Positions 55,857 through 64,000 of a stretch of DNA of 64,000 bases are shown piece by piece. Positions within the stretch are counted from its first letter, which is position 1. Each line of letters opens with the position of its first letter. Source of the stretch: Escherichia coli. GTDB taxonomy: Bacteria > Pseudomonadota > Gammaproteobacteria > Enterobacterales > Enterobacteriaceae. Under the pieces are notes generated by a model. It saw nothing but the letters and a program-made list of their open reading frames with translations. It searched no databases and was not told the origin of the DNA. The DNA is taken from the NCBI RefSeq assembly GCF_017348835.2, contig NZ_CP071375.1; one strand, given 5' to 3'. A program made the translations under genes and the position numbers.

Positions 55857-56369
55857 TTACTCGCCTTTCTTCTGTAGCAACTTTTCCGGTACGTTTCCGG
55901 TTGTTTCTTTCAAGTAATCAGCCAGTATCTGTGGGAGGTTGTCGGCAACTCTGGCACTGGCATTACAGGCTTTAACCACTTCCCTTTTAAGCCTATCCAG
56001 CATGGCGTGGGTAATCTGTGGGAAGCTCCTTTGCATAGTAAGCGGGAGGCTGTCCATGATTGATGAAATCTGACTCGCCAGCTTTGAAAGCGCGTACAGG
56101 CAAAACTCAGTATCAATCACGTCACCGCGATCGCGCTCGTTTTTAAGTTCCTGCGCCTCCGCCTGTGCTGTCAGTAATCTGATCCTGACTCGTAAGAGTT
56201 CATCATCATCAATATCGCCTTTGTCGTTTGTAAGCTGGCTAATTGCATTGTTAACCCTATTGTCTATCACGCTGGCAACATCGTAAAACGCCTCACGGCC
56301 TTTACGTTCAACGGGAGTCACTCCCCACTTGTCGAACGCTGTCGCACTTACACGGCAGCTTTTCGCCAT
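55857..56369 (-). CDS. Small-terminase (Nu1)-like protein with diverged N-terminal DNA-recognition region
   Basis: 170 aa; central/C-terminal region closely resembles NohA at 16716-17261 (LTAQAEAQELKNERD...); N-terminal ~45 aa diverged and shortened. Confidence 0.7.
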   Translation of the reverse strand: MAKSCRVSATAFDKWGVTPVERKGREAFYDVASVIDNRVNNAISQLTNDKGDIDDDELLRVRIRLLTAQAEAQELKNERDRGDVIDTEFCLYALSKLASQISSIMDSLPLTMQRSFPQITHAMLDRLKREVVKACNASARVADNLPQILADYLKETTGNVPEKLLQKKGE

Positions 56370-56399
56370 GTTTTTTTGTTCATCAGGTGCGATTTCATT

Positions 56400-56437
56400 A
56401 ATACACCAACTTAATTACTGCTTCAGGTTGGTGTATT
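56400..56437. repeat. 11 bp inverted repeat (AATACACCAAC N16 GTTGGTGTATT) between cos and the terS-like start
   Basis: Read directly; lies in the terS-like leader. Confidence 0.55.
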
Positions 56438-56531
56438 GTTTGCATCTTTCCCTTTTCATTCATAAAGATAGAGCAAACAACAAAACCACCACCACCCCCC
56501 TGAAAAGGCTCATAAATAGCGAAAAACCGCG

Positions 56532-56543
56532 AGGTCGCCGCCC
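56532..56543 (-). other. Second lambda-type cosN sequence (minus orientation), about 165 bp upstream of the terS-like gene
   Basis: Exact 12-mer AGGTCGCCGCCC on the plus strand; inverted relative to 55666-55677. Confidence 0.7.
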
Positions 56544-56604
56544 CGTAACGGGTCCATATGCCGGAAAGGTCCCGTAAAAAAAGCCGGATTTCTCCGGCCT
56601 TGTC

Positions 56605-57018
56605 TCAGATGGTTTTCAGTATGCGATCGATGTCGCCGTCATCGCCCTGGTTTCTGCCATCGTATGCCATGCCAGCTGATACGGCTTGCGGGCTGTGCAT
56701 GTCCATAAAGTTTTCAAAGGCTGCGGTAAGCTCTGGTGCAACCTTTGGGCGCTCCTGCTCTATGGTCATGTTCAGGATTTCACGAGCATTATCGACGCTA
56801 ATACATGGCACGTTTGCCATTGCACGTAACAGCGGCTGATAGTCTTTATGCTCATGAAGCGCCATAATCGCATCAGCGCGCGGCTTGTCCTGCTCTTCCA
56901 GTTTGTTTAGTTGATATACGGCCTCATAGGTTGATAAACCTCTGTCAGCCATTGCCCGCGCTTCGGCTTTAAATTTACTCGCCAGCGGTAGCGTCATGAT
57001 GCTTTCATTCGTTGCCAT
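56605..57018 (-). CDS. Hypothetical head-module protein (137 aa)
   Basis: ORF between the gpD-like and terS-like genes; no recognisable motif. Confidence 0.3.
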   Translation of the reverse strand: MATNESIMTLPLASKFKAEARAMADRGLSTYEAVYQLNKLEEQDKPRADAIMALHEHKDYQPLLRAMANVPCISVDNAREILNMTIEQERPKVAPELTAAFENFMDMHSPQAVSAGMAYDGRNQGDDGDIDRILKTI

Positions 57019-57030
57019 CGTTCCCCCTGC

Positions 57031-57430
57031 TTATCGGGCCAGCGGCTGAACGGATACGCCGGAACCCGCAAAGGCGGCGCATTTTTTCGCATCGGTGTCG
57101 ACGCTCTCAGGCCAGTTAACGGCGGCAATATTGAATATCCCCGTCTTGTAACACTGTGCTGATTTCTGCTTTGACGTGTCCACAGGATACGAAGTCAGAT
57201 AAACAGCCTTGCCAGATTCCTGACCATCCCACGGCTTAAACTCGCCATTGTCCGCCAGCATCAGCGGGGTAAATTCCTGAATAACGCCAGCATCAGCGGG
57301 GTAAATTCCTGAATAACGCCAGCATCAGCGGGGTAAATTCCTGAATAACGCCAGCATCAGCGGCAAAATGTACCAGCGTCGTGGCGACCTGCTGACTGCC
57401 TGCAAATAACTCAATGTATGGAGTGTCCAT
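57031..57430 (-). pseudogene. Lambda gpD-like head decoration gene disrupted by a 64 bp tandem duplication
   Basis: 5' part (MDTPYIELFAG...TPLML) and 3' part (ADNGEFKPWDG...YKTGIF...AFAG) resemble lambda gpD; frame is restored by removing two 32 bp repeat copies. Confidence 0.65.
57254..57363. repeat. Tandem repeat: 32 bp unit (gccagcatcagcggggtaaattcctgaataac) x3 plus a 14 bp partial copy
   Basis: Perfect copies at 57254-57285, 57286-57317, 57318-57349; partial at 57350-57363. Confidence 0.9.
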
Positions 57431-59999: not shown

Positions 60000-60304
60000 G
60001 CCGTCTGCTCTCCGGTTTTAACGTTGATGGTTGTTACCTGTTCCGCTTCGGCAATCTCCCGTTCTGTCAACGTGGCAAAGTTTGCCGCTGCTGTGGTCAT
60101 GAATGCGCTTATCAGTTCGGGATGCTCCTTCGCGTATCCTTCCCCCGCGTGGCGGTCTATCGTTCTGATTGCCACCTTTAAAGCCAGTTCAGCCATATCT
60201 AACGCCTTATATTTCGGCTCTGTTCTGTCTCTGCGTTTTTGGGTCATTTCTCGCAACCTCTCACTTTTTCGCCTCACTTTTTCAAGCGTCTCACTTCGTC
60301 GCAA
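59996..60304 (-). CDS. Hypothetical protein
   Basis: ORF overlaps the SSB-like start by 4 bp. Confidence 0.3.
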   Translation of the reverse strand: MRRSETLEKVRRKSERLREMTQKRRDRTEPKYKALDMAELALKVAIRTIDRHAGEGYAKEHPELISAFMTTAAANFATLTEREIAEAEQVTTINVKTGEQTA

Positions 60305-60447
60305 TTGGGATTTTTGGTTTTTCTATGTGTGTGTTTCATAAGTATTTTTTTACCCCTCACTTTTGAGGATGTATACAGGTAAAAAAGTGAGGGAGAGCAG
60401 GCTAATTTTGGCCCTCTTTCTATCCACCTCGCTTTTGCTCCTCACTT

Positions 60448-61854
60448 TTATAGCGGCGCTACATCATCCCCATCGATACGAATAACCCCATCTTTTTCCA
60501 GCTTGTACAGCCAGCGCCGGAAGTTTTTCATTTCATACCCCAGTTTTTTCATGTCATCACGTAACAGCGGGATCGTGCACTTGTCGCCGTTCTGTGTGCG
60601 TGAACGGATGCACCCCCATAGCGCGGTATGGTTTTCCGTCTTGTTCCCTGCCTCCTCGATGCGCTCCAGTTCTGCCGGTTCGCGTGGGATGTCAATCACC
60701 ACCATGGACACGATTTCTTCACCCTCAGGATCCGTAAATACCTCCACGCTCTTAAGGTCGTAGGCACTTTCTTTTGGCTCCTCCGCGTCCTTCATCTTCG
60801 TACATGCTGCAACCAGCGCCGTAGCCTCTGAATGTTCCCGACTGATTCGGAACTCAGCATCAAGCGCCGCACGGAATGCACTGGAACCCCGCGCCCCTTT
60901 CGTCTCATCCTTGCCGGAATGATGCACAACCAGAACCGTGGCCCCCGTGGCCTGCTTTATCGCGTCACACCCCTGGATAAACGCCCCCATGTCGCGGGAG
61001 TCATTTTCATCATGACCACCAAAGCAACGGGCCAGCGTGTCAATGACAATCATCCGCACCCTTTCGCCCGTTCTGTCCTGCACTAATCCGGCGGTCCTGA
61101 TAACCTGTTCCACATAGTCCGGCGATGCGGGGAATACTGGCGAATTGACGATACACAAATCAGTAACCGCCTTACCGTGGGTTATTTCCCATGCCTTAAC
61201 GCGGCGCTTTACGCCCATACTTCCTTCACCAGCAACATAGATAACCGCGCCTTTACACACCCTGCGGCCTCCCCATTTCATTCCAGTGGCAACATGACAC
61301 GCCCACGAAATGGCAAGGAACGACTTATAGGAACCGCTCGCCCCGTAGGTGCTGCATAATGCTTCCGCCGGAATAAGCCCCTTAATCACGTAGCTTTGCT
61401 GCGCGTCGAACCCTTCCGATCCCCATGAAATCGGTAGCGTGATTTTTTGTTTTCCTCCGTTCATGATCAGGCTTTCCCCTCTCTCCCATGTCTCCCGTAG
61501 CCGTGGAAGCTGGTCGGTCCATTTCTCCAGTAATTCGAAGTTTTCAGAAAGCAGCCGCGCTTCATGGACTCCGGCGATCGCCAGTTTTGTCGCTATGGTT
61601 AACAGCTGCGCTTCGTCAATATTTCCGGCGCGTATCACCGTTACCCTGTATCGCCCCTCATCAACAATCTGCAGGTTGTCCAGTTCGCTTAACTGATAAC
61701 GCCCCAGGTAAACGGGAGGCGTGGAGTCTCCCGCCTTTTTGGCCTGTGCAATGATGTAGTGCTCTGCAAATGAGTGCGCATCATTCCCCGCGAAAATAAT
61801 TGCTTCGGTGTGTTTGTCTTTCGGTAATAGTTTTACGTTCGGTGCCAGTTTCAT
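60448..61854 (-). CDS. RecA-fold AAA ATPase (RepA/DnaB-like replication protein)
   Basis: 468 aa; Walker A GASGSYKS; Walker-B-like MIVIDTL; C-terminal wHTH-like region. Confidence 0.7.
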   Translation of the reverse strand: MKLAPNVKLLPKDKHTEAIIFAGNDAHSFAEHYIIAQAKKAGDSTPPVYLGRYQLSELDNLQIVDEGRYRVTVIRAGNIDEAQLLTIATKLAIAGVHEARLLSENFELLEKWTDQLPRLRETWERGESLIMNGGKQKITLPISWGSEGFDAQQSYVIKGLIPAEALCSTYGASGSYKSFLAISWACHVATGMKWGGRRVCKGAVIYVAGEGSMGVKRRVKAWEITHGKAVTDLCIVNSPVFPASPDYVEQVIRTAGLVQDRTGERVRMIVIDTLARCFGGHDENDSRDMGAFIQGCDAIKQATGATVLVVHHSGKDETKGARGSSAFRAALDAEFRISREHSEATALVAACTKMKDAEEPKESAYDLKSVEVFTDPEGEEIVSMVVIDIPREPAELERIEEAGNKTENHTALWGCIRSRTQNGDKCTIPLLRDDMKKLGYEMKNFRRWLYKLEKDGVIRIDGDDVAPL

Positions 61855-62150
61855 TTTTTACCCCTGAATACGTTAAGCATCTTTTTTATTTCCTGAATAT
61901 TGGCGCGTGCTTTCTCCCTGCTGGTTGGAACGTTACGCGGTACAGCCTGCACCAGAGAAAAATCACGGTCGAACTGATAAACAGGCATCACGCAATCATA
62001 TTCGTAGCCTTCACGACGGTAGGTTACGCGCCGTTCCTCCACGCCCTTAATCATTACCGTGCCGCCGTACTGGTCGCGGTAAATATCACCGCGCATGAAT
62101 TTAGTGCGAGTTTTGCCACTGGCAGTTAAGCCAGAATATTTAAGTTTCAT
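61851..62150 (-). CDS. Hypothetical protein (99 aa), translationally coupled to the ATPase gene
   Basis: Stop overlaps the ATPase start (ATGA). Confidence 0.3.
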   Translation of the reverse strand: MKLKYSGLTASGKTRTKFMRGDIYRDQYGGTVMIKGVEERRVTYRREGYEYDCVMPVYQFDRDFSLVQAVPRNVPTSREKARANIQEIKKMLNVFRGKK

Positions 62151-62155
62151 TATTT

Positions 62156-62389
62156 TTATTCTCCGGTGTGCTGTTCTTTATATCTGTCGTGCAATAGATC
62201 TATTTCTTGCAGTTCCATTATTACATGCTCAAGAATCGTTATTAATGCCGTGGCAATTCTTGATTTTTGTTTGTCGCGTTCATTGTCGCCAAGTGTTTCA
62301 AGCCATATGCGCAATATTTCCAGCATGTTTTCACTGTGAGAAAGTGCAAGAAATGCGCGGTCTATTGTTTCGAGGTAAATATCACGCAT
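62156..62389 (-). CDS. Hypothetical small helical protein (77 aa)
   Basis: ORF; starts MRDI. Confidence 0.3.
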   Translation of the reverse strand: MRDIYLETIDRAFLALSHSENMLEILRIWLETLGDNERDKQKSRIATALITILEHVIMELQEIDLLHDRYKEQHTGE

Positions 62390-62390
62390 A

Positions 62391-62612
62391 TTAATCCCCG
62401 TCCGTTGTTTTTCTTAAAATAACTTCTGTCACGAAATCAGCATAGTTAGCGGCAATATCAAGAATATTTAGCCCTGTATCTCTGTGCTCATCAGTGCAAA
62501 GAAAGAAAAAAGCCACCCGCATAATTTCAGATATTGACGAAAGCGCATCAGCCGCATCATCAGGAACGCCGGAAAATTCTTGTTTCAGGGAATTAAAACG
62601 ATCATCACGCAT
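62391..62612 (-). CDS. Hypothetical small protein (73 aa from MRDD)
   Basis: ORF; possible paralogue of neighbours. Confidence 0.3.
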   Translation of the reverse strand: MRDDRFNSLKQEFSGVPDDAADALSSISEIMRVAFFFLCTDEHRDTGLNILDIAANYADFVTEVILRKTTDGD

Positions 62613-62877
62613 AACCCCCCCCATTTTCATAATCTGCAACAAGAATATTTTTAGCGTCATTCAGCGACCGCGTGGCGGTGTATCGGATACATTCCAGGGC
62701 GAACAATGTGTATTCCTCCCGTTCTTCCTTTTGTGCAAGCTCTGCCGTGCATTCAATATCAATAAGCGCGTGCATCAGCGTAGTGAGTGCGGCTGCGTCC
62801 GGACGGATGTTATTGCACATGGTGTACCCCTCCGCATTTTTTTTCGTTAGAAATAAGCGTTCTTCTTTCCTGTTCAT
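62605..62877 (-). CDS. Hypothetical small protein
   Basis: ORF; start uncertain. Confidence 0.25.
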   Translation of the reverse strand: MNRKEERLFLTKKNAEGYTMCNNIRPDAAALTTLMHALIDIECTAELAQKEEREEYTLFALECIRYTATRSLNDAKNILVADYENGGGYA

Positions 62878-63043
62878 CGCTCAGGAATACGCAGACCTCA
62901 CCGCTAAGGCGTTTAAGTAAGCCGATGATTGCCCCTGATTCGCTGTCGGTCATCATGCCAGGGTAATCCTCTGCCAGTGCGCAAATAACTTCGATTTGGT
63001 GGGCGCGTTCTGCTGCCTGTTGTAGTGTGATTTCCTGGCTCAT
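62810..63043 (-). CDS. Hypothetical small protein (77 aa from MSQEIT), first gene of the leftward operon
   Basis: ORF. Confidence 0.3.
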   Translation of the reverse strand: MSQEITLQQAAERAHQIEVICALAEDYPGMMTDSESGAIIGLLKRLSGEVCVFLSDEQERRTLISNEKKCGGVHHVQ

Positions 63044-63327
63044 AAGCCTACCCCCTGGCGAATACGGGCGGCGAATACAGCAACACAACCTGACGGGCAA
63101 CGGTTACGCGCTTCGCGTTCCGTCCAGGCGGTTACGTGGATTATTTGAGATTCTCCGGCACTCAGTGCCAGAAAACGCCACACAAAGGCCGTTTGTGTGT
63201 GTACAAGGTGTGGTATATGATTTACAGCAACCATAACGGCTCCTAGTTTACGTTGTTGGTTAGAAGCCCTGCGAGTGGTAACGACACTTGCGGGGCTTTG
63301 TCTTTTCATCGATTACCTTGATAAAGG

Positions 63328-63407
63328 TGTCAGCCACTATATTAGTAACGGGTGTCAGCCACGTCAATAGTGTTTTTCCGTTTTCTTGTGTGTATACTGT
63401 CAGCCAC
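63328..63407 (+). promoter_or_regulatory. Three direct repeats of TGTCAGCCAC with a TATACT -10-like hexamer: candidate operator/promoter
   Basis: Repeats at 63328-63337, 63353-63362 and 63398-63407; TATACT at 63392-63397. Confidence 0.55.
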
Positions 63408-63428
63408 CTAATAACGAGGAAATCAGAT

Positions 63429-63608
63429 ATGGCAACAAAAGCAGTTAATGCAAAATCCAAAAAGCTTGAGGCTCGAGTACCACACGCAATAGCTGATGCT
63501 GTAGAAAATTTAAAGGAAGATGGCGAAAGTACAGGGCAATTTATCGTTTCGGCACTTGAAGGCGAGATCAAACGCCGCCAGCGCCGCAAGGCCAAAGAAT
63601 CAGAATAA
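63429..63608 (+). CDS. Small basic DNA-binding-like protein (possible ribbon-helix-helix regulator)
   Basis: 59 aa from MATKAVNAKSKKLEARVPHAIADAVENLKEDGE... Confidence 0.45.
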   Translation: MATKAVNAKSKKLEARVPHAIADAVENLKEDGESTGQFIVSALEGEIKRRQRRKAKESE

Positions 63609-63650
63609 TCACTATCAGCGCCGTGGTGTGAGGTATTACGGCGCATTGCT

Positions 63651-63839
63651 ATGCAGGACAACACAATGACCGATAAAGAATTGACCAAAACATTATCACC
63701 GGCACGGAAAAGACGGCGCAGAAAGATAGAACATGAATCAGAAAGATTCGCGCCATGTGCTTTTGCCCTTGAGCAATTCCTTAAAGAGTACAGGGAAAAG
63801 CGCTCATTGCAGGTATGGCAACGAACTGAACCAGACTGA
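63651..63839 (+). CDS. Hypothetical small basic protein
   Basis: ORF with RRRRK stretch. Confidence 0.3.
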   Translation: MQDNTMTDKELTKTLSPARKRRRRKIEHESERFAPCAFALEQFLKEYREKRSLQVWQRTEPD

Positions 63840-63935
63840 TTGCATTGCCCACCAGCCTGATAGCGGCTATCATCCCCGTGCTTATGTTTGGGATCACACA
63901 CACAAACGGCGCAGCGGGTTATCTGTTCAGAAAGG

Positions 63936-63962
63936 CGGCTCCATTTCGGGGCCGCTTTTTTT
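63936..63962 (+). terminator. Rho-independent terminator
   Basis: cggctcc atttc ggggccg stem followed by T7. Confidence 0.55.
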
Positions 63963-64000
63963 ATGCCTGAAAAACCCCAATTTTGTGGTTTTCCAGTCTC

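What the first reader, a model, noticed from the sequence alone, without database searches (positions are those of the whole stretch)
63100..63430. Divergent control region with three TGTCAGCCAC direct repeats and two inverted-repeat hairpins
Between the leftward operon and a rightward small basic protein gene there are three copies of TGTCAGCCAC, the last next to a TATACT -10-like hexamer. Two inverted repeats (ggcact ca gtgcc, and cacacaaa ggccg tttgtgtg) lie nearby. This looks like an operator/promoter switch, and the small basic protein is a candidate repressor.
Basis: seen in the sequence. Interest (0 to 1): 0.5.

Follow-up and report, generated by a model that had tools for sequence, protein, structure and literature searches.

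The report
Repressor switch of a phage satellite
The three repeats are very probably the binding sites of a small, so far uncharacterised ribbon-helix-helix repressor (YlcI/YnfO family) that shuts off the main promoter of a phage-parasitic island. A conserved antisense RNA lies next to them, and the same cassette is found in the two model E. coli islands, for which no repressor has been identified.

Summary
TGTCAGCCAC occurs exactly three times (63328, 63353, 63398) and nowhere else in the window. The region is the control cassette of an EcCICFT073-like phage-inducible chromosomal island (PICI) in E. coli tqsA.

- **Sites:** each is an 11-bp GTG-N5-CAC pseudo-palindrome. O2 lies in the spacer of a conserved leftward promoter, O1 at its start site, and O3 at the start site of the ylcI promoter.
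- **Covariation:** across 84 related loci the site core changes in step with residues 9-19 of the protein, its predicted DNA-reading strand (adjusted mutual information, AMI, 0.95). It does not track AlpA (0.12), the Icd-like gene (0.22) or the downstream ORF (0.30).
- **Chimeras:** two natural chimeric proteins place specificity in the N-terminal part.
- **Missed feature:** a conserved, roughly 80-nt plus-strand RNA, antisense to the icd ribosome site, with compensatory changes and 91 versus 2 strand-specific wobble pairs.

This is a new member of a known kind, resembling P22 immI. It matters because no repressor has been identified for Gram-negative PICIs.

The parts
63327..63337 (.). O1, operator GTGTCAGCCAC. 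An 11-bp GTG-N5-CAC pseudo-palindrome, 1 nt downstream of the P_left -10, covering the predicted P_left start site.
63352..63362 (.). O2, operator GTGTCAGCCAC. It lies in the spacer of P_left, and its last base is the first base (on the + strand) of the -35 hexamer.
63397..63407 (.). O3, operator CTGTCAGCCAC. It overlaps the last two bases of the P_right -10 and the predicted ylcI start site, which suggests autoregulation.
63339..63367 (-). P_left, the promoter of the icd-like/replication/capsid operon: TTGACG (63367..63362), 17 bp, TAATAT (63344..63339). Predicted start about 63332.
   Evidence: Conserved in 52 (-35) and 50 (-10) of 56 distinct relatives, and also in L083.
63393..63398 (+). 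P_right -10 (TATACT) of ylcI. No good -35 hexamer; a T-rich stretch lies upstream.
   Evidence: a -10-like hexamer ends 28-31 nt before the ATG in all 56 relatives, TAnnnT in 48 and CATACT in 8.
63429..63608 (+). ylcI, encoding a 59-aa ribbon-helix-helix protein of the YlcI/YnfO family. Predicted strand residues 10-18, helices 19-28 and 35-58.
63651..63839 (+). Small basic ORF (62 aa, or 57 aa from the ATG at 63666) downstream of ylcI. Probably the second gene of the rightward unit; function unknown.
   Evidence: phrog_21027, E 1.6e-15. Annotated in CFT073 as WP_000130015.1. No Pfam or NCBIfam match.
63931..63966 (+). Terminator-like hairpin plus a T run that would end the rightward unit. It is weaker on the minus strand.
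   Evidence: z -3.9 on +, -1.7 on -.
63216..63309 (+). Predicted cis-antisense RNA unit.
- -10 TATGAT at 63216-63221, with TTGTGT at 63193-63198 as a possible -35.
- Start about 63228.
- Stem-loop 1 at about 63229-63261, with the anti-Shine-Dalgarno CUCCU in its loop.
- Conserved GUUGGUUAGA.
- Terminator stem-loop at 63263-63299, then a T run at 63300-63309.
63040..63234 (-). Icd-like gene (64 aa), first gene of the leftward operon. Its Shine-Dalgarno sequence and AUG are covered by the antisense RNA.
63151..63199 (-). They fold better as mRNA-sense RNA. Their role is unresolved, and they are not part of the operator set.

Best explanation
The region is the immunity/control cassette of a Gram-negative phage-inducible chromosomal island.

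Proposed mechanism:
- YlcI, a 59-aa ribbon-helix-helix protein, is made from a weak rightward promoter.
- It binds as a symmetric dimer to three 11-bp GTG-N5-CAC sites. It probably reads the variable centre with strand residues 12 and 14, and the fixed GTG/CAC arms with the invariant Arg16.
- O2 lies in the spacer and O1 on the start site of the leftward promoter. Occupancy there excludes RNA polymerase and silences the icd-like, replication and capsid operon.
- O3, on ylcI's own start site, gives negative autoregulation.
- Leaky leftward transcripts are handled by a second layer: a constitutive plus-strand RNA of about 80 nt. It is fully complementary to the leader, Shine-Dalgarno sequence and AUG of the first gene, and would block its translation.

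What is shown: the sites, their placement on conserved promoter elements, the fold, the protein-site covariation, and the strand-specific conserved RNA structure.

What is inferred: binding, the sign of regulation (repression), the transcription start sites, and the action of the antisense RNA.

How AlpA, the published helper-induced activator, overrides this block is not known.
For: Sites and promoters:
- Three exact copies are confined to 80 bp.
- A minus-strand promoter-like site, TTGACG-17-TAATAT, is bracketed by O1 and O2.
- The same layout is kept in 52 and 50 of 56 distinct relatives.

Fold:
- The AF2 monomer has pLDDT 89.

Covariation:
- Fourteen strand variants map to the site variants, AMI 0.95. 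For comparison, AMI is 0.22 for the left gene, 0.12 for AlpA and 0.30 for the right ORF.
- One identical AlpA occurs with 4 site types, and one Icd N-terminus with 7.
- The natural chimeras L082 and L083 keep TGTCAGCCAC together with the KKLEARVPH strand, despite carrying foreign helices.
- Between distant loci the sites are 33/33 identical while the surrounding sequence is 38-39/69 identical (Fisher p 5e-7).
- Sites flip orientation in relatives, as expected for a symmetric binder.

Antisense RNA:
- 20 pairs, 13 of them with compensatory changes.
- 95.5% of cells pair on the + strand against 82% on the - strand, with 91 wobble pairs against 2.
- 0 of 500 shuffles reach the observed values.
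- MFE z-score is -4.6 on + and -1.6 on -.
- The TAnnnT positions of the -10 are invariant in 33 sequences.
Against: - There are no experimental data on binding, transcripts or phenotype.
- The sites and the strand codons are only 60-80 bp apart, so part of the covariation could be linkage. However, the icd start is equally close and is shuffled freely.
- P_right has no recognisable -35.
- O1-O2 (25 bp) and O2-O3 (45 bp) spacings do not suggest the usual adjacent-dimer cooperativity of ribbon-helix-helix repressors.
- In EcCICFT073, AlpA overexpression alone induces the island (PMC6092414). Any YlcI block must therefore be bypassable.
- The antisense RNA matches no Rfam family, and its promoter is only a consensus match.
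Confidence: 0.72

Rival explanations
1. The repeats are binding sites of AlpA, the known helper-induced activator and excisionase-like regulator of Gram-negative PICIs, rather than of YlcI.
For: AlpA activates PICI genes and its own promoter in EcCICFT073 (PMC6092414). alpA lies about 0.7 kb to the right.
Against: One identical AlpA sequence is found with four different site types, and the AMI between AlpA and site type is 0.12. The sites sit on the promoter core (spacer and +1), which is a repressive position, not upstream of -35 where activators usually bind.
Confidence: 0.05
2. The repeats are iterons of the island's replication origin, bound by the replication initiator.
For: PICI origins are made of short repeats (PMC6092414).
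Against: The same TGTCAGCCAC triplet is combined with three unrelated replication proteins: a RepA helicase, a DUF927 primase and a Zn-ribbon/Toprim/DUF927 primase. The sites are more than 1.4 kb upstream of the rep gene, whereas described PICI origins follow rep. They overlap promoter hexamers.
Confidence: 0.03
3. YlcI binds the sites, but mainly as an autoregulating antitoxin of a two-gene toxin-antitoxin-like pair (ylcI plus the downstream small ORF). Control of the leftward operon would be incidental.
Against: The downstream ORF matches no known toxin family. It is replaced by unrelated ORFs in many loci, and in 22 of 84 loci no ORF of at least 40 aa follows ylcI. Two of the three sites sit on the divergent promoter, not on ylcI's own.
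Confidence: 0.08
4. The sites are bound by the Icd-like protein (some PHROG families that hit it are labelled 'transcriptional repressor') or by the downstream small basic ORF.
For: PHROG labels for the Icd-like protein. Both proteins are small and encoded next to the sites.
Against: One Icd-like N-terminus occurs with 7 site types (AMI 0.22). The right ORF occurs with up to 4 site types (AMI 0.30). L082 has a 318-aa Ash-family gene instead of a short icd, yet carries the same sites.
Confidence: 0.04
5. YlcI binds the sites but activates, rather than represses, the leftward promoter.
For: Some regulators, such as the MerR family, act from the promoter spacer.
Against: The spacers are a normal 17-18 bp. 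A second site covers +1. Ribbon-helix-helix proteins at such positions (Arc, Mnt, CopG, omega) are repressors; this rests on established knowledge. The island is quiescent without a helper (PMC6092414).
Confidence: 0.06

Closest known systems
Phage P22 immI region (Mnt and Arc ribbon-helix-helix repressors, divergent Pant/Pmnt, sar antisense RNA)
   Same: A small ribbon-helix-helix repressor is transcribed divergently from the operon it silences. Its operators lie on the promoter cores and it regulates itself. A short cis-antisense RNA is directed at a ribosome-binding site in the repressed operon.
   Different: There is no detectable sequence relationship (no Pfam Arc/RHH hit). Here there are three separate 11-bp palindromes rather than one 17-21-bp operator bound by a tetramer. 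The controlled operon is a satellite's replication/packaging operon that starts with an icd-like gene, not an antirepressor gene. The comparison rests on my knowledge of P22, not on a test here.
Phage P1/P7 immI (c4 RNA - icd - ant) and P4 CI RNA
   Same: The first gene is icd-like, and its translation start is the target of a small RNA. PICI 'Bro zones' are reported to carry such immunity RNAs (PMC10111431).
   Different: c4 and CI are made from the same strand as their target and act through short complementary boxes. The RNA here is a true cis-antisense transcript. Rfam C4 and IsrK do not match, even at E up to 1.
Stl/Rpr master repressors of Gram-positive PICIs (SaPIs)
   Same: A repressor gene lies divergent from the island's main operon, next to int, and would keep the island silent until a helper phage acts.
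   Different: Stl/Rpr are larger helix-turn-helix proteins and are inactivated by helper proteins. YlcI is a 59-aa ribbon-helix-helix protein and no inducer is known. The published Gram-negative trigger is the activator AlpA (PMC6092414).
Omega repressor (pSM19035) and CopG (pMV158)
   Different: Omega units are contiguous 7-bp heptads bound cooperatively. Here the units are 11 bp and 25 and 45 bp apart. Those are plasmid copy-number and partition contexts.

Membership tests
Ribbon-helix-helix (MetJ/Arc) superfamily | Strand, helix A, G-x-S/T turn, helix B topology | tested here: met
Ribbon-helix-helix (MetJ/Arc) superfamily | Intertwined dimer whose two N-terminal strands pair into a ribbon | tested here: met
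Ribbon-helix-helix (MetJ/Arc) superfamily | Sequence match to a curated RHH family (Pfam RHH_1, Arc, CopG and others) or to a solved chain | tested here: not met
   No Pfam hit even at E up to 10. No PDB sequence hit with the family profile. Foldseek not significant.
Ribbon-helix-helix (MetJ/Arc) superfamily | Sequence-specific DNA binding through the ribbon | not testable with these tools
   Supported only indirectly, by covariation of strand residues 11-15 with the site core.
NCBIfam NF041551 YlcI_YnfO_N | Score above the curated cut-off | tested here: met
   60.6 bits against a cut-off of 30, residues 9-50. K-12 YlcI itself is only 20% identical.
Gram-negative PICI (EcCICFT073 type) | An island of about 10-15 kb with int, alpA, a primase/replicase, PerC and a few captured head genes, and no tail or lysis genes | tested here: met
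   Annotation of L001: int, AlpA-like HTH, RepA helicase, SSB, PerC, capsid, decoration and TerS, inserted in tqsA. The order of gene families matches EcCICFT073 from int to the head decoration gene, with a RepA helicase in place of its primase.
Gram-negative PICI (EcCICFT073 type) | Induction and transfer by a helper phage | not testable with these tools
   The decoration and TerS genes are frameshifted in this copy, so it may be defective.
cf-PICI (EcCIEDL933 type) | Full head-packaging module (capsid, protease, portal, connectors, HNH, TerS, TerL) | tested here: not met
   Absent from this island. Present in the O157:H7 island at the same tqsA site, which carries the identical YlcI and operators.
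Rfam C4 antisense RNA / IsrK | Covariance-model match | tested here: not met
   No match at E up to 1 in window 60000-64000 or in L001 8800-12400.
Type II toxin-antitoxin module with an RHH antitoxin | A conserved, recognisable toxin gene immediately downstream | tested here: not met
   The downstream ORF has no NCBIfam or Pfam match. It is replaced by unrelated ORFs, or no ORF of at least 40 aa follows, in many loci.

The most novel reading that the evidence does not exclude
YlcI is the missing master repressor of Gram-negative PICIs, including the model islands EcCICFT073 and EcCIEDL933. Its strand/operator classes (at least ten were seen here) would define immunity groups of satellites. Together with the cis-antisense RNA, it would form a two-layer lock that the helper phage must open. 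That could happen through AlpA-driven read-through across the oppositely oriented ylcI unit, or through a helper protein that inactivates YlcI. One candidate is a phage YlcI/YnfO paralogue that forms mixed dimers with it.
Probability: 0.35. Interest if true: 0.7.

Novelty: new member of a known kind. Interest (0 to 1): 0.55.

Why it matters

The cassette analysed here is present in both model islands, EcCICFT073 and the cf-PICI of O157:H7. The 1.2-kb region matches 1459 of 5426 complete E. coli genomes.

If YlcI is the repressor:
- a domain-of-unknown-function family (YlcI/YnfO, DUF3950) gains a function;
- satellite quiescence gains a testable mechanism;
- the natural strand/operator pairs give a compact recognition table for engineering orthogonal small repressors.

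The antisense RNA would add an undescribed regulatory RNA to these islands.

Tried and rejected
- **Known immunity RNA:** I expected a C4/IsrK-type RNA upstream of the icd-like gene, as in P1 or P4. Rfam gave no match at E up to 1.
- **Phage collection:** a megablast search of the phage collection found nothing. The region is chromosomal and island-borne.
- **Rival binders:** AlpA, the Icd-like protein, the downstream ORF and Rep were each considered as the binder. All were rejected on the association analysis and on module shuffling.
- **Further sites in the island:** there is only one 1-mismatch copy, at a chance level.
- **K-12 ylcI:** it lies next to the DLP12 cos site and has no comparable site triplet, so the operator architecture is not general to the whole family.
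- **The two coding-region hairpins:** I considered them as a translation-coupled attenuator. The other common icd allele shows no terminator-like hairpin, so I leave them unexplained.
- **Literature:** searches for YlcI, YnfO, DUF3950, PICI plus ribbon-helix-helix, and PICI repressors found nothing on function.
- **Not run:** the genome-contig scan, because 84 loci already gave enough diversity.

Full report
**1. Where we are**

The last 1.2 kb of the window is identical to E. coli PE164 chromosome NZ_CP114128.1, and it matches 1459 of 5426 complete E. coli genomes. No phage record matches it.

The annotated context is an island of about 11 kb inserted in tqsA. Its genes are:
- an integrase and an AlpA-like HTH gene (phrog_2790);
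- a YlcI/YnfO family gene on the opposite strand;
- on the integrase strand, an Icd-like gene, small ORFs, DUF4222, a RepA helicase, SSB and PerC;
- a lambda-E-like capsid gene, a frameshifted decoration gene and a frameshifted small terminase gene.

The gene families follow the same order as in the model Gram-negative PICI EcCICFT073, apart from a RepA helicase in place of its primase. The regulatory part, with an identical YlcI protein, also sits in the capsid-forming island of O157:H7 at the same tqsA site.

**2. The observation**

TGTCAGCCAC occurs at 63328, 63353 and 63398 and nowhere else in the window. About 0.12 exact copies of a given 10-mer are expected by chance.

Both inverted repeats exist. 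However, they lie inside the Icd-like CDS at 63040-63234 on the minus strand. The intergenic region proper is 63235-63428.

The strongest hairpin there is at 63263-63299 and is followed by a T run.

**3. Anatomy of the control region**

On the minus strand, TTGACG (63367..63362), a 17-bp spacer and TAATAT (63344..63339) form a promoter-like site.
- O2 (63352-63362) fills the start of the spacer.
- O1 (63327-63337) begins 1 nt after the -10 and covers the expected start site.

On the plus strand, TATACT (63393-63398) overlaps O3 (63397-63407). O3 is followed by GAGGAA and the ylcI ATG at 63429.

An alignment of 17 diverse relatives shows the same order of elements. Among 56 distinct intergenic regions:
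- 52 keep TTGA[CA]N next to O2;
- 50 have a hexamer with A at position 2 and T at position 6, at 16-19 bp from it;
- all have a -10-like hexamer ending 28-31 nt before the ylcI ATG, TAnnnT in 48 and CATACT in 8.

**4. The sites are palindromes that evolve in concert with the protein**

I collected 80 IMG/VR loci encoding relatives 63-100% identical to the protein. To these I added the window's own locus, two natural chimeras and the O157:H7 island, giving 84 loci.

In these, the three positions (about -102, -77 and -31 from the ATG) always carry the same 11-mer within a locus, but different 11-mers between lineages. The general form is GTG-N5-CAC.

| YlcI strand (residues 11-19) | Site |
|---|---|
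| KKLEARVPH | GTGTCAGCCAC |
| KRFDVRVPH | GTGTCGGACAC |
| KKIDVRVPH | GTGTCAGACAC |
| QALKARVPH | GTGTGGCCCAC |
| QTVAARVPH / QTLAARVPH | GTGTT(G/A)AACAC |
| QKLQARAPH | (C/G)TGGA(T/A)TCCA(G/C) |
| QKMSARVPH | CTGGCACCCA(C/G) |
| QSVTARIAH | GTGTCTTACAC |
| TQLASRVPH | GTG(C/G)TTAGCAC |

Several of these sites are perfect 5-1-5 palindromes. In some loci one copy is the reverse complement of another (L055, L031, L047). Both facts point to a two-fold symmetric binder.

Adjusted mutual information (AMI) with the site type:

| Feature | AMI |
|---|---|
| YlcI residues 9-19 | 0.95 |
| First leftward gene | 0.22 |
| AlpA | 0.12 |
| ORF downstream of ylcI | 0.30 |

One Icd-like N-terminus occurs with 7 site types. 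One identical AlpA occurs with 4.

Two natural chimeras sharpen this result.
- The Xenorhabdus protein in L082 has the KKLEARVPH strand on helices nearly identical to those of the QKMS class.
- The E. coli protein in L083 has the same strand on the C-terminal half of the QALK class.
- Both carry three copies of TGTCAGCCAC.

Between the window's cassette and three distant loci (L024, L027, L082), the 33 site positions are all identical. Only 38-39 of the 69 other positions from O1 to the ATG are identical (Fisher p 5e-7).

The same site triplet is also combined with three unrelated replication proteins. That excludes iterons.

**5. The protein**

It meets NCBIfam YlcI_YnfO_N (60.6 bits against a cut-off of 30). 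It has no Pfam hit and no sequence-level PDB hit.

The AF2 model built from 38 homologues (pLDDT 89) has an extended N-terminus, helix 19-28, a G-E-S turn and helix 35-58.
- Foldseek found nothing significant.

The predicted strand is exactly the segment that co-varies with the sites. Residues 13, 15 and 17 are hydrophobic and should face the core. Residues 12, 14 and the invariant R16 should then face the DNA. On that reading R16 would read the fixed GTG/CAC arms and residues 12 and 14 the variable centre. This last step is inference.

**6. A conserved antisense RNA**

The hairpin at 63263-63299, followed by GTCTTTTCAT, is terminator-like on the plus strand only.

In an alignment of 33 diverse loci, the T, A and T of a -10 hexamer are invariant. 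In the window this hexamer is TATGAT at 63216-63221.

RNAalifold predicts two stem-loops with 20 pairs, 13 of which show compensatory changes. Further evidence:
- On the plus strand 95.5% of cells pair, with 91 G·U wobbles. On the minus strand 82% pair, with 2 wobbles.
- None of 500 shuffles reaches the observed pairing or covariation, and sliding the partners destroys it.
- The window's 83-nt plus-strand RNA folds to -35.5 kcal/mol (z -4.6). The complementary strand reaches -22.1 kcal/mol (z -1.6).

Stem-loop 1 displays CUCCU, the complement of the icd Shine-Dalgarno sequence, in its loop. The RNA also spans the icd AUG at 63234..63232. This is the anatomy of a cis-antisense translational repressor.

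It matches no Rfam family.

**7. The rightward unit**

A 62-aa ORF lies at 63651-63839. It would be 57 aa if translation starts at the ATG at 63666.
- It hits phrog_21027.
- It is annotated in CFT073.
- It shares a FALExFxxxY motif with divergent counterparts.

RefSeq annotates a minus-strand pseudogene there instead. The ORF has no Pfam or NCBIfam match.

It is replaced by unrelated ORFs in many loci, and in 22 of 84 loci no ORF of at least 40 aa follows ylcI. This argues against an obligatory toxin partner.

A plus-strand terminator-like hairpin follows at 63931-63966.

**8.

They fold better as the mRNA-sense strand (-24.4 kcal/mol, z -3.2) than as the plus strand (z -2.0). The right arm of the second hairpin coincides with a possible -35 of the antisense promoter.

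The other common icd allele shows no terminator-like hairpin at that place. I therefore treat them as allele-specific features of unresolved meaning, not as part of the operator set.

**9. Mechanism and its limits**

The best-supported reading has three parts.
- YlcI dimers on O1 and O2 occlude the leftward promoter.
- O3 autoregulates ylcI.
- The antisense RNA blocks translation of whatever leaks through.

The published trigger of these islands is AlpA. Helper phages switch it on, and its overexpression alone induces EcCICFT073 (PMC6092414). How AlpA gets past a YlcI block is open. One possibility is read-through from the alpA promoter across the oppositely oriented ylcI unit.

**10. Comparison and novelty**

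Functionally the cassette resembles the P22 immI region: a ribbon-helix-helix repressor, divergent promoters and an antisense RNA. It also resembles P1 immI, where an RNA controls an icd-first operon. By position it corresponds to the Stl/Rpr repressors of Gram-positive PICIs.

It belongs to none of those families by sequence.

I found no paper on the function of YlcI/YnfO, nor on a repressor of Gram-negative PICIs. The founding paper calls the existence of such a repressor unclear.

I rate it a new member of a known kind, of moderate to good interest for satellite biology. All functional statements still await experiment.

Noticed in passing
window 63604-64000 (L001 9805-10252): RefSeq annotates a minus-strand 'hypothetical, incomplete' pseudogene here. 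A plus-strand ORF (63651/63666-63839) has PHROG support and is annotated as a gene in CFT073, so the RefSeq call is probably wrong.
   Followed up: partly
L001 2058-3631 (window about 55857-57430): The island's head decoration gene and small terminase gene are both frameshifted, so this copy of the satellite may be unable to package itself.
   Followed up: no
L001, L082, L083, L084, L087: The same ylcI-operator cassette is combined with three different replication modules (RepA helicase, DUF927 primase, Zn-ribbon/Toprim/DUF927). It is also combined with two different late modules (EcCICFT073-like capsid and decoration genes, and a full cf-PICI head module). The regulatory cassette therefore travels as an exchangeable unit.
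   Followed up: partly
window 63255-63264 and the aligned position in all 33 loci of alignment A2: A nearly invariant GTTGGTTAGA / GTGGTTAGA motif lies between the two stem-loops of the predicted antisense RNA. Part of it pairs with the complement of the start-codon region. It is more conserved than pairing alone would require.
   Followed up: no
L085 4252-4840 (E. coli K-12 DLP12 prophage): K-12 ylcI, 20% identical to the protein here, lies divergently next to the prophage cos site and nohD. It has no triplet of GTG-N5-CAC sites. The lambdoid branch of the family may have a different role, possibly linked to packaging.
   Followed up: partly
window 63040-63234: The Icd-like protein hits PHROG families labelled 'transcriptional repressor' (phrog_1743, phrog_6196). 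This label may derive from the old protein annotation of the P4 cI region and looks unreliable.
   Followed up: no
loci L066-L081 (QTVAARVPH class): In this class the third site is not at -31 on the ylcI start. It lies at about -61, next to the -35 of the leftward promoter, and the ylcI -10 reads CATACT. Autoregulation may be wired differently there.
   Followed up: no
window 63151-63199, minus strand: Two consecutive hairpins in codons 12-28 of the icd-like mRNA (z -3.2). The first is followed by GCGUUUUCUG and was flagged as terminator-like. It may be an intragenic attenuator, and it is specific to this allele.
   Followed up: partly
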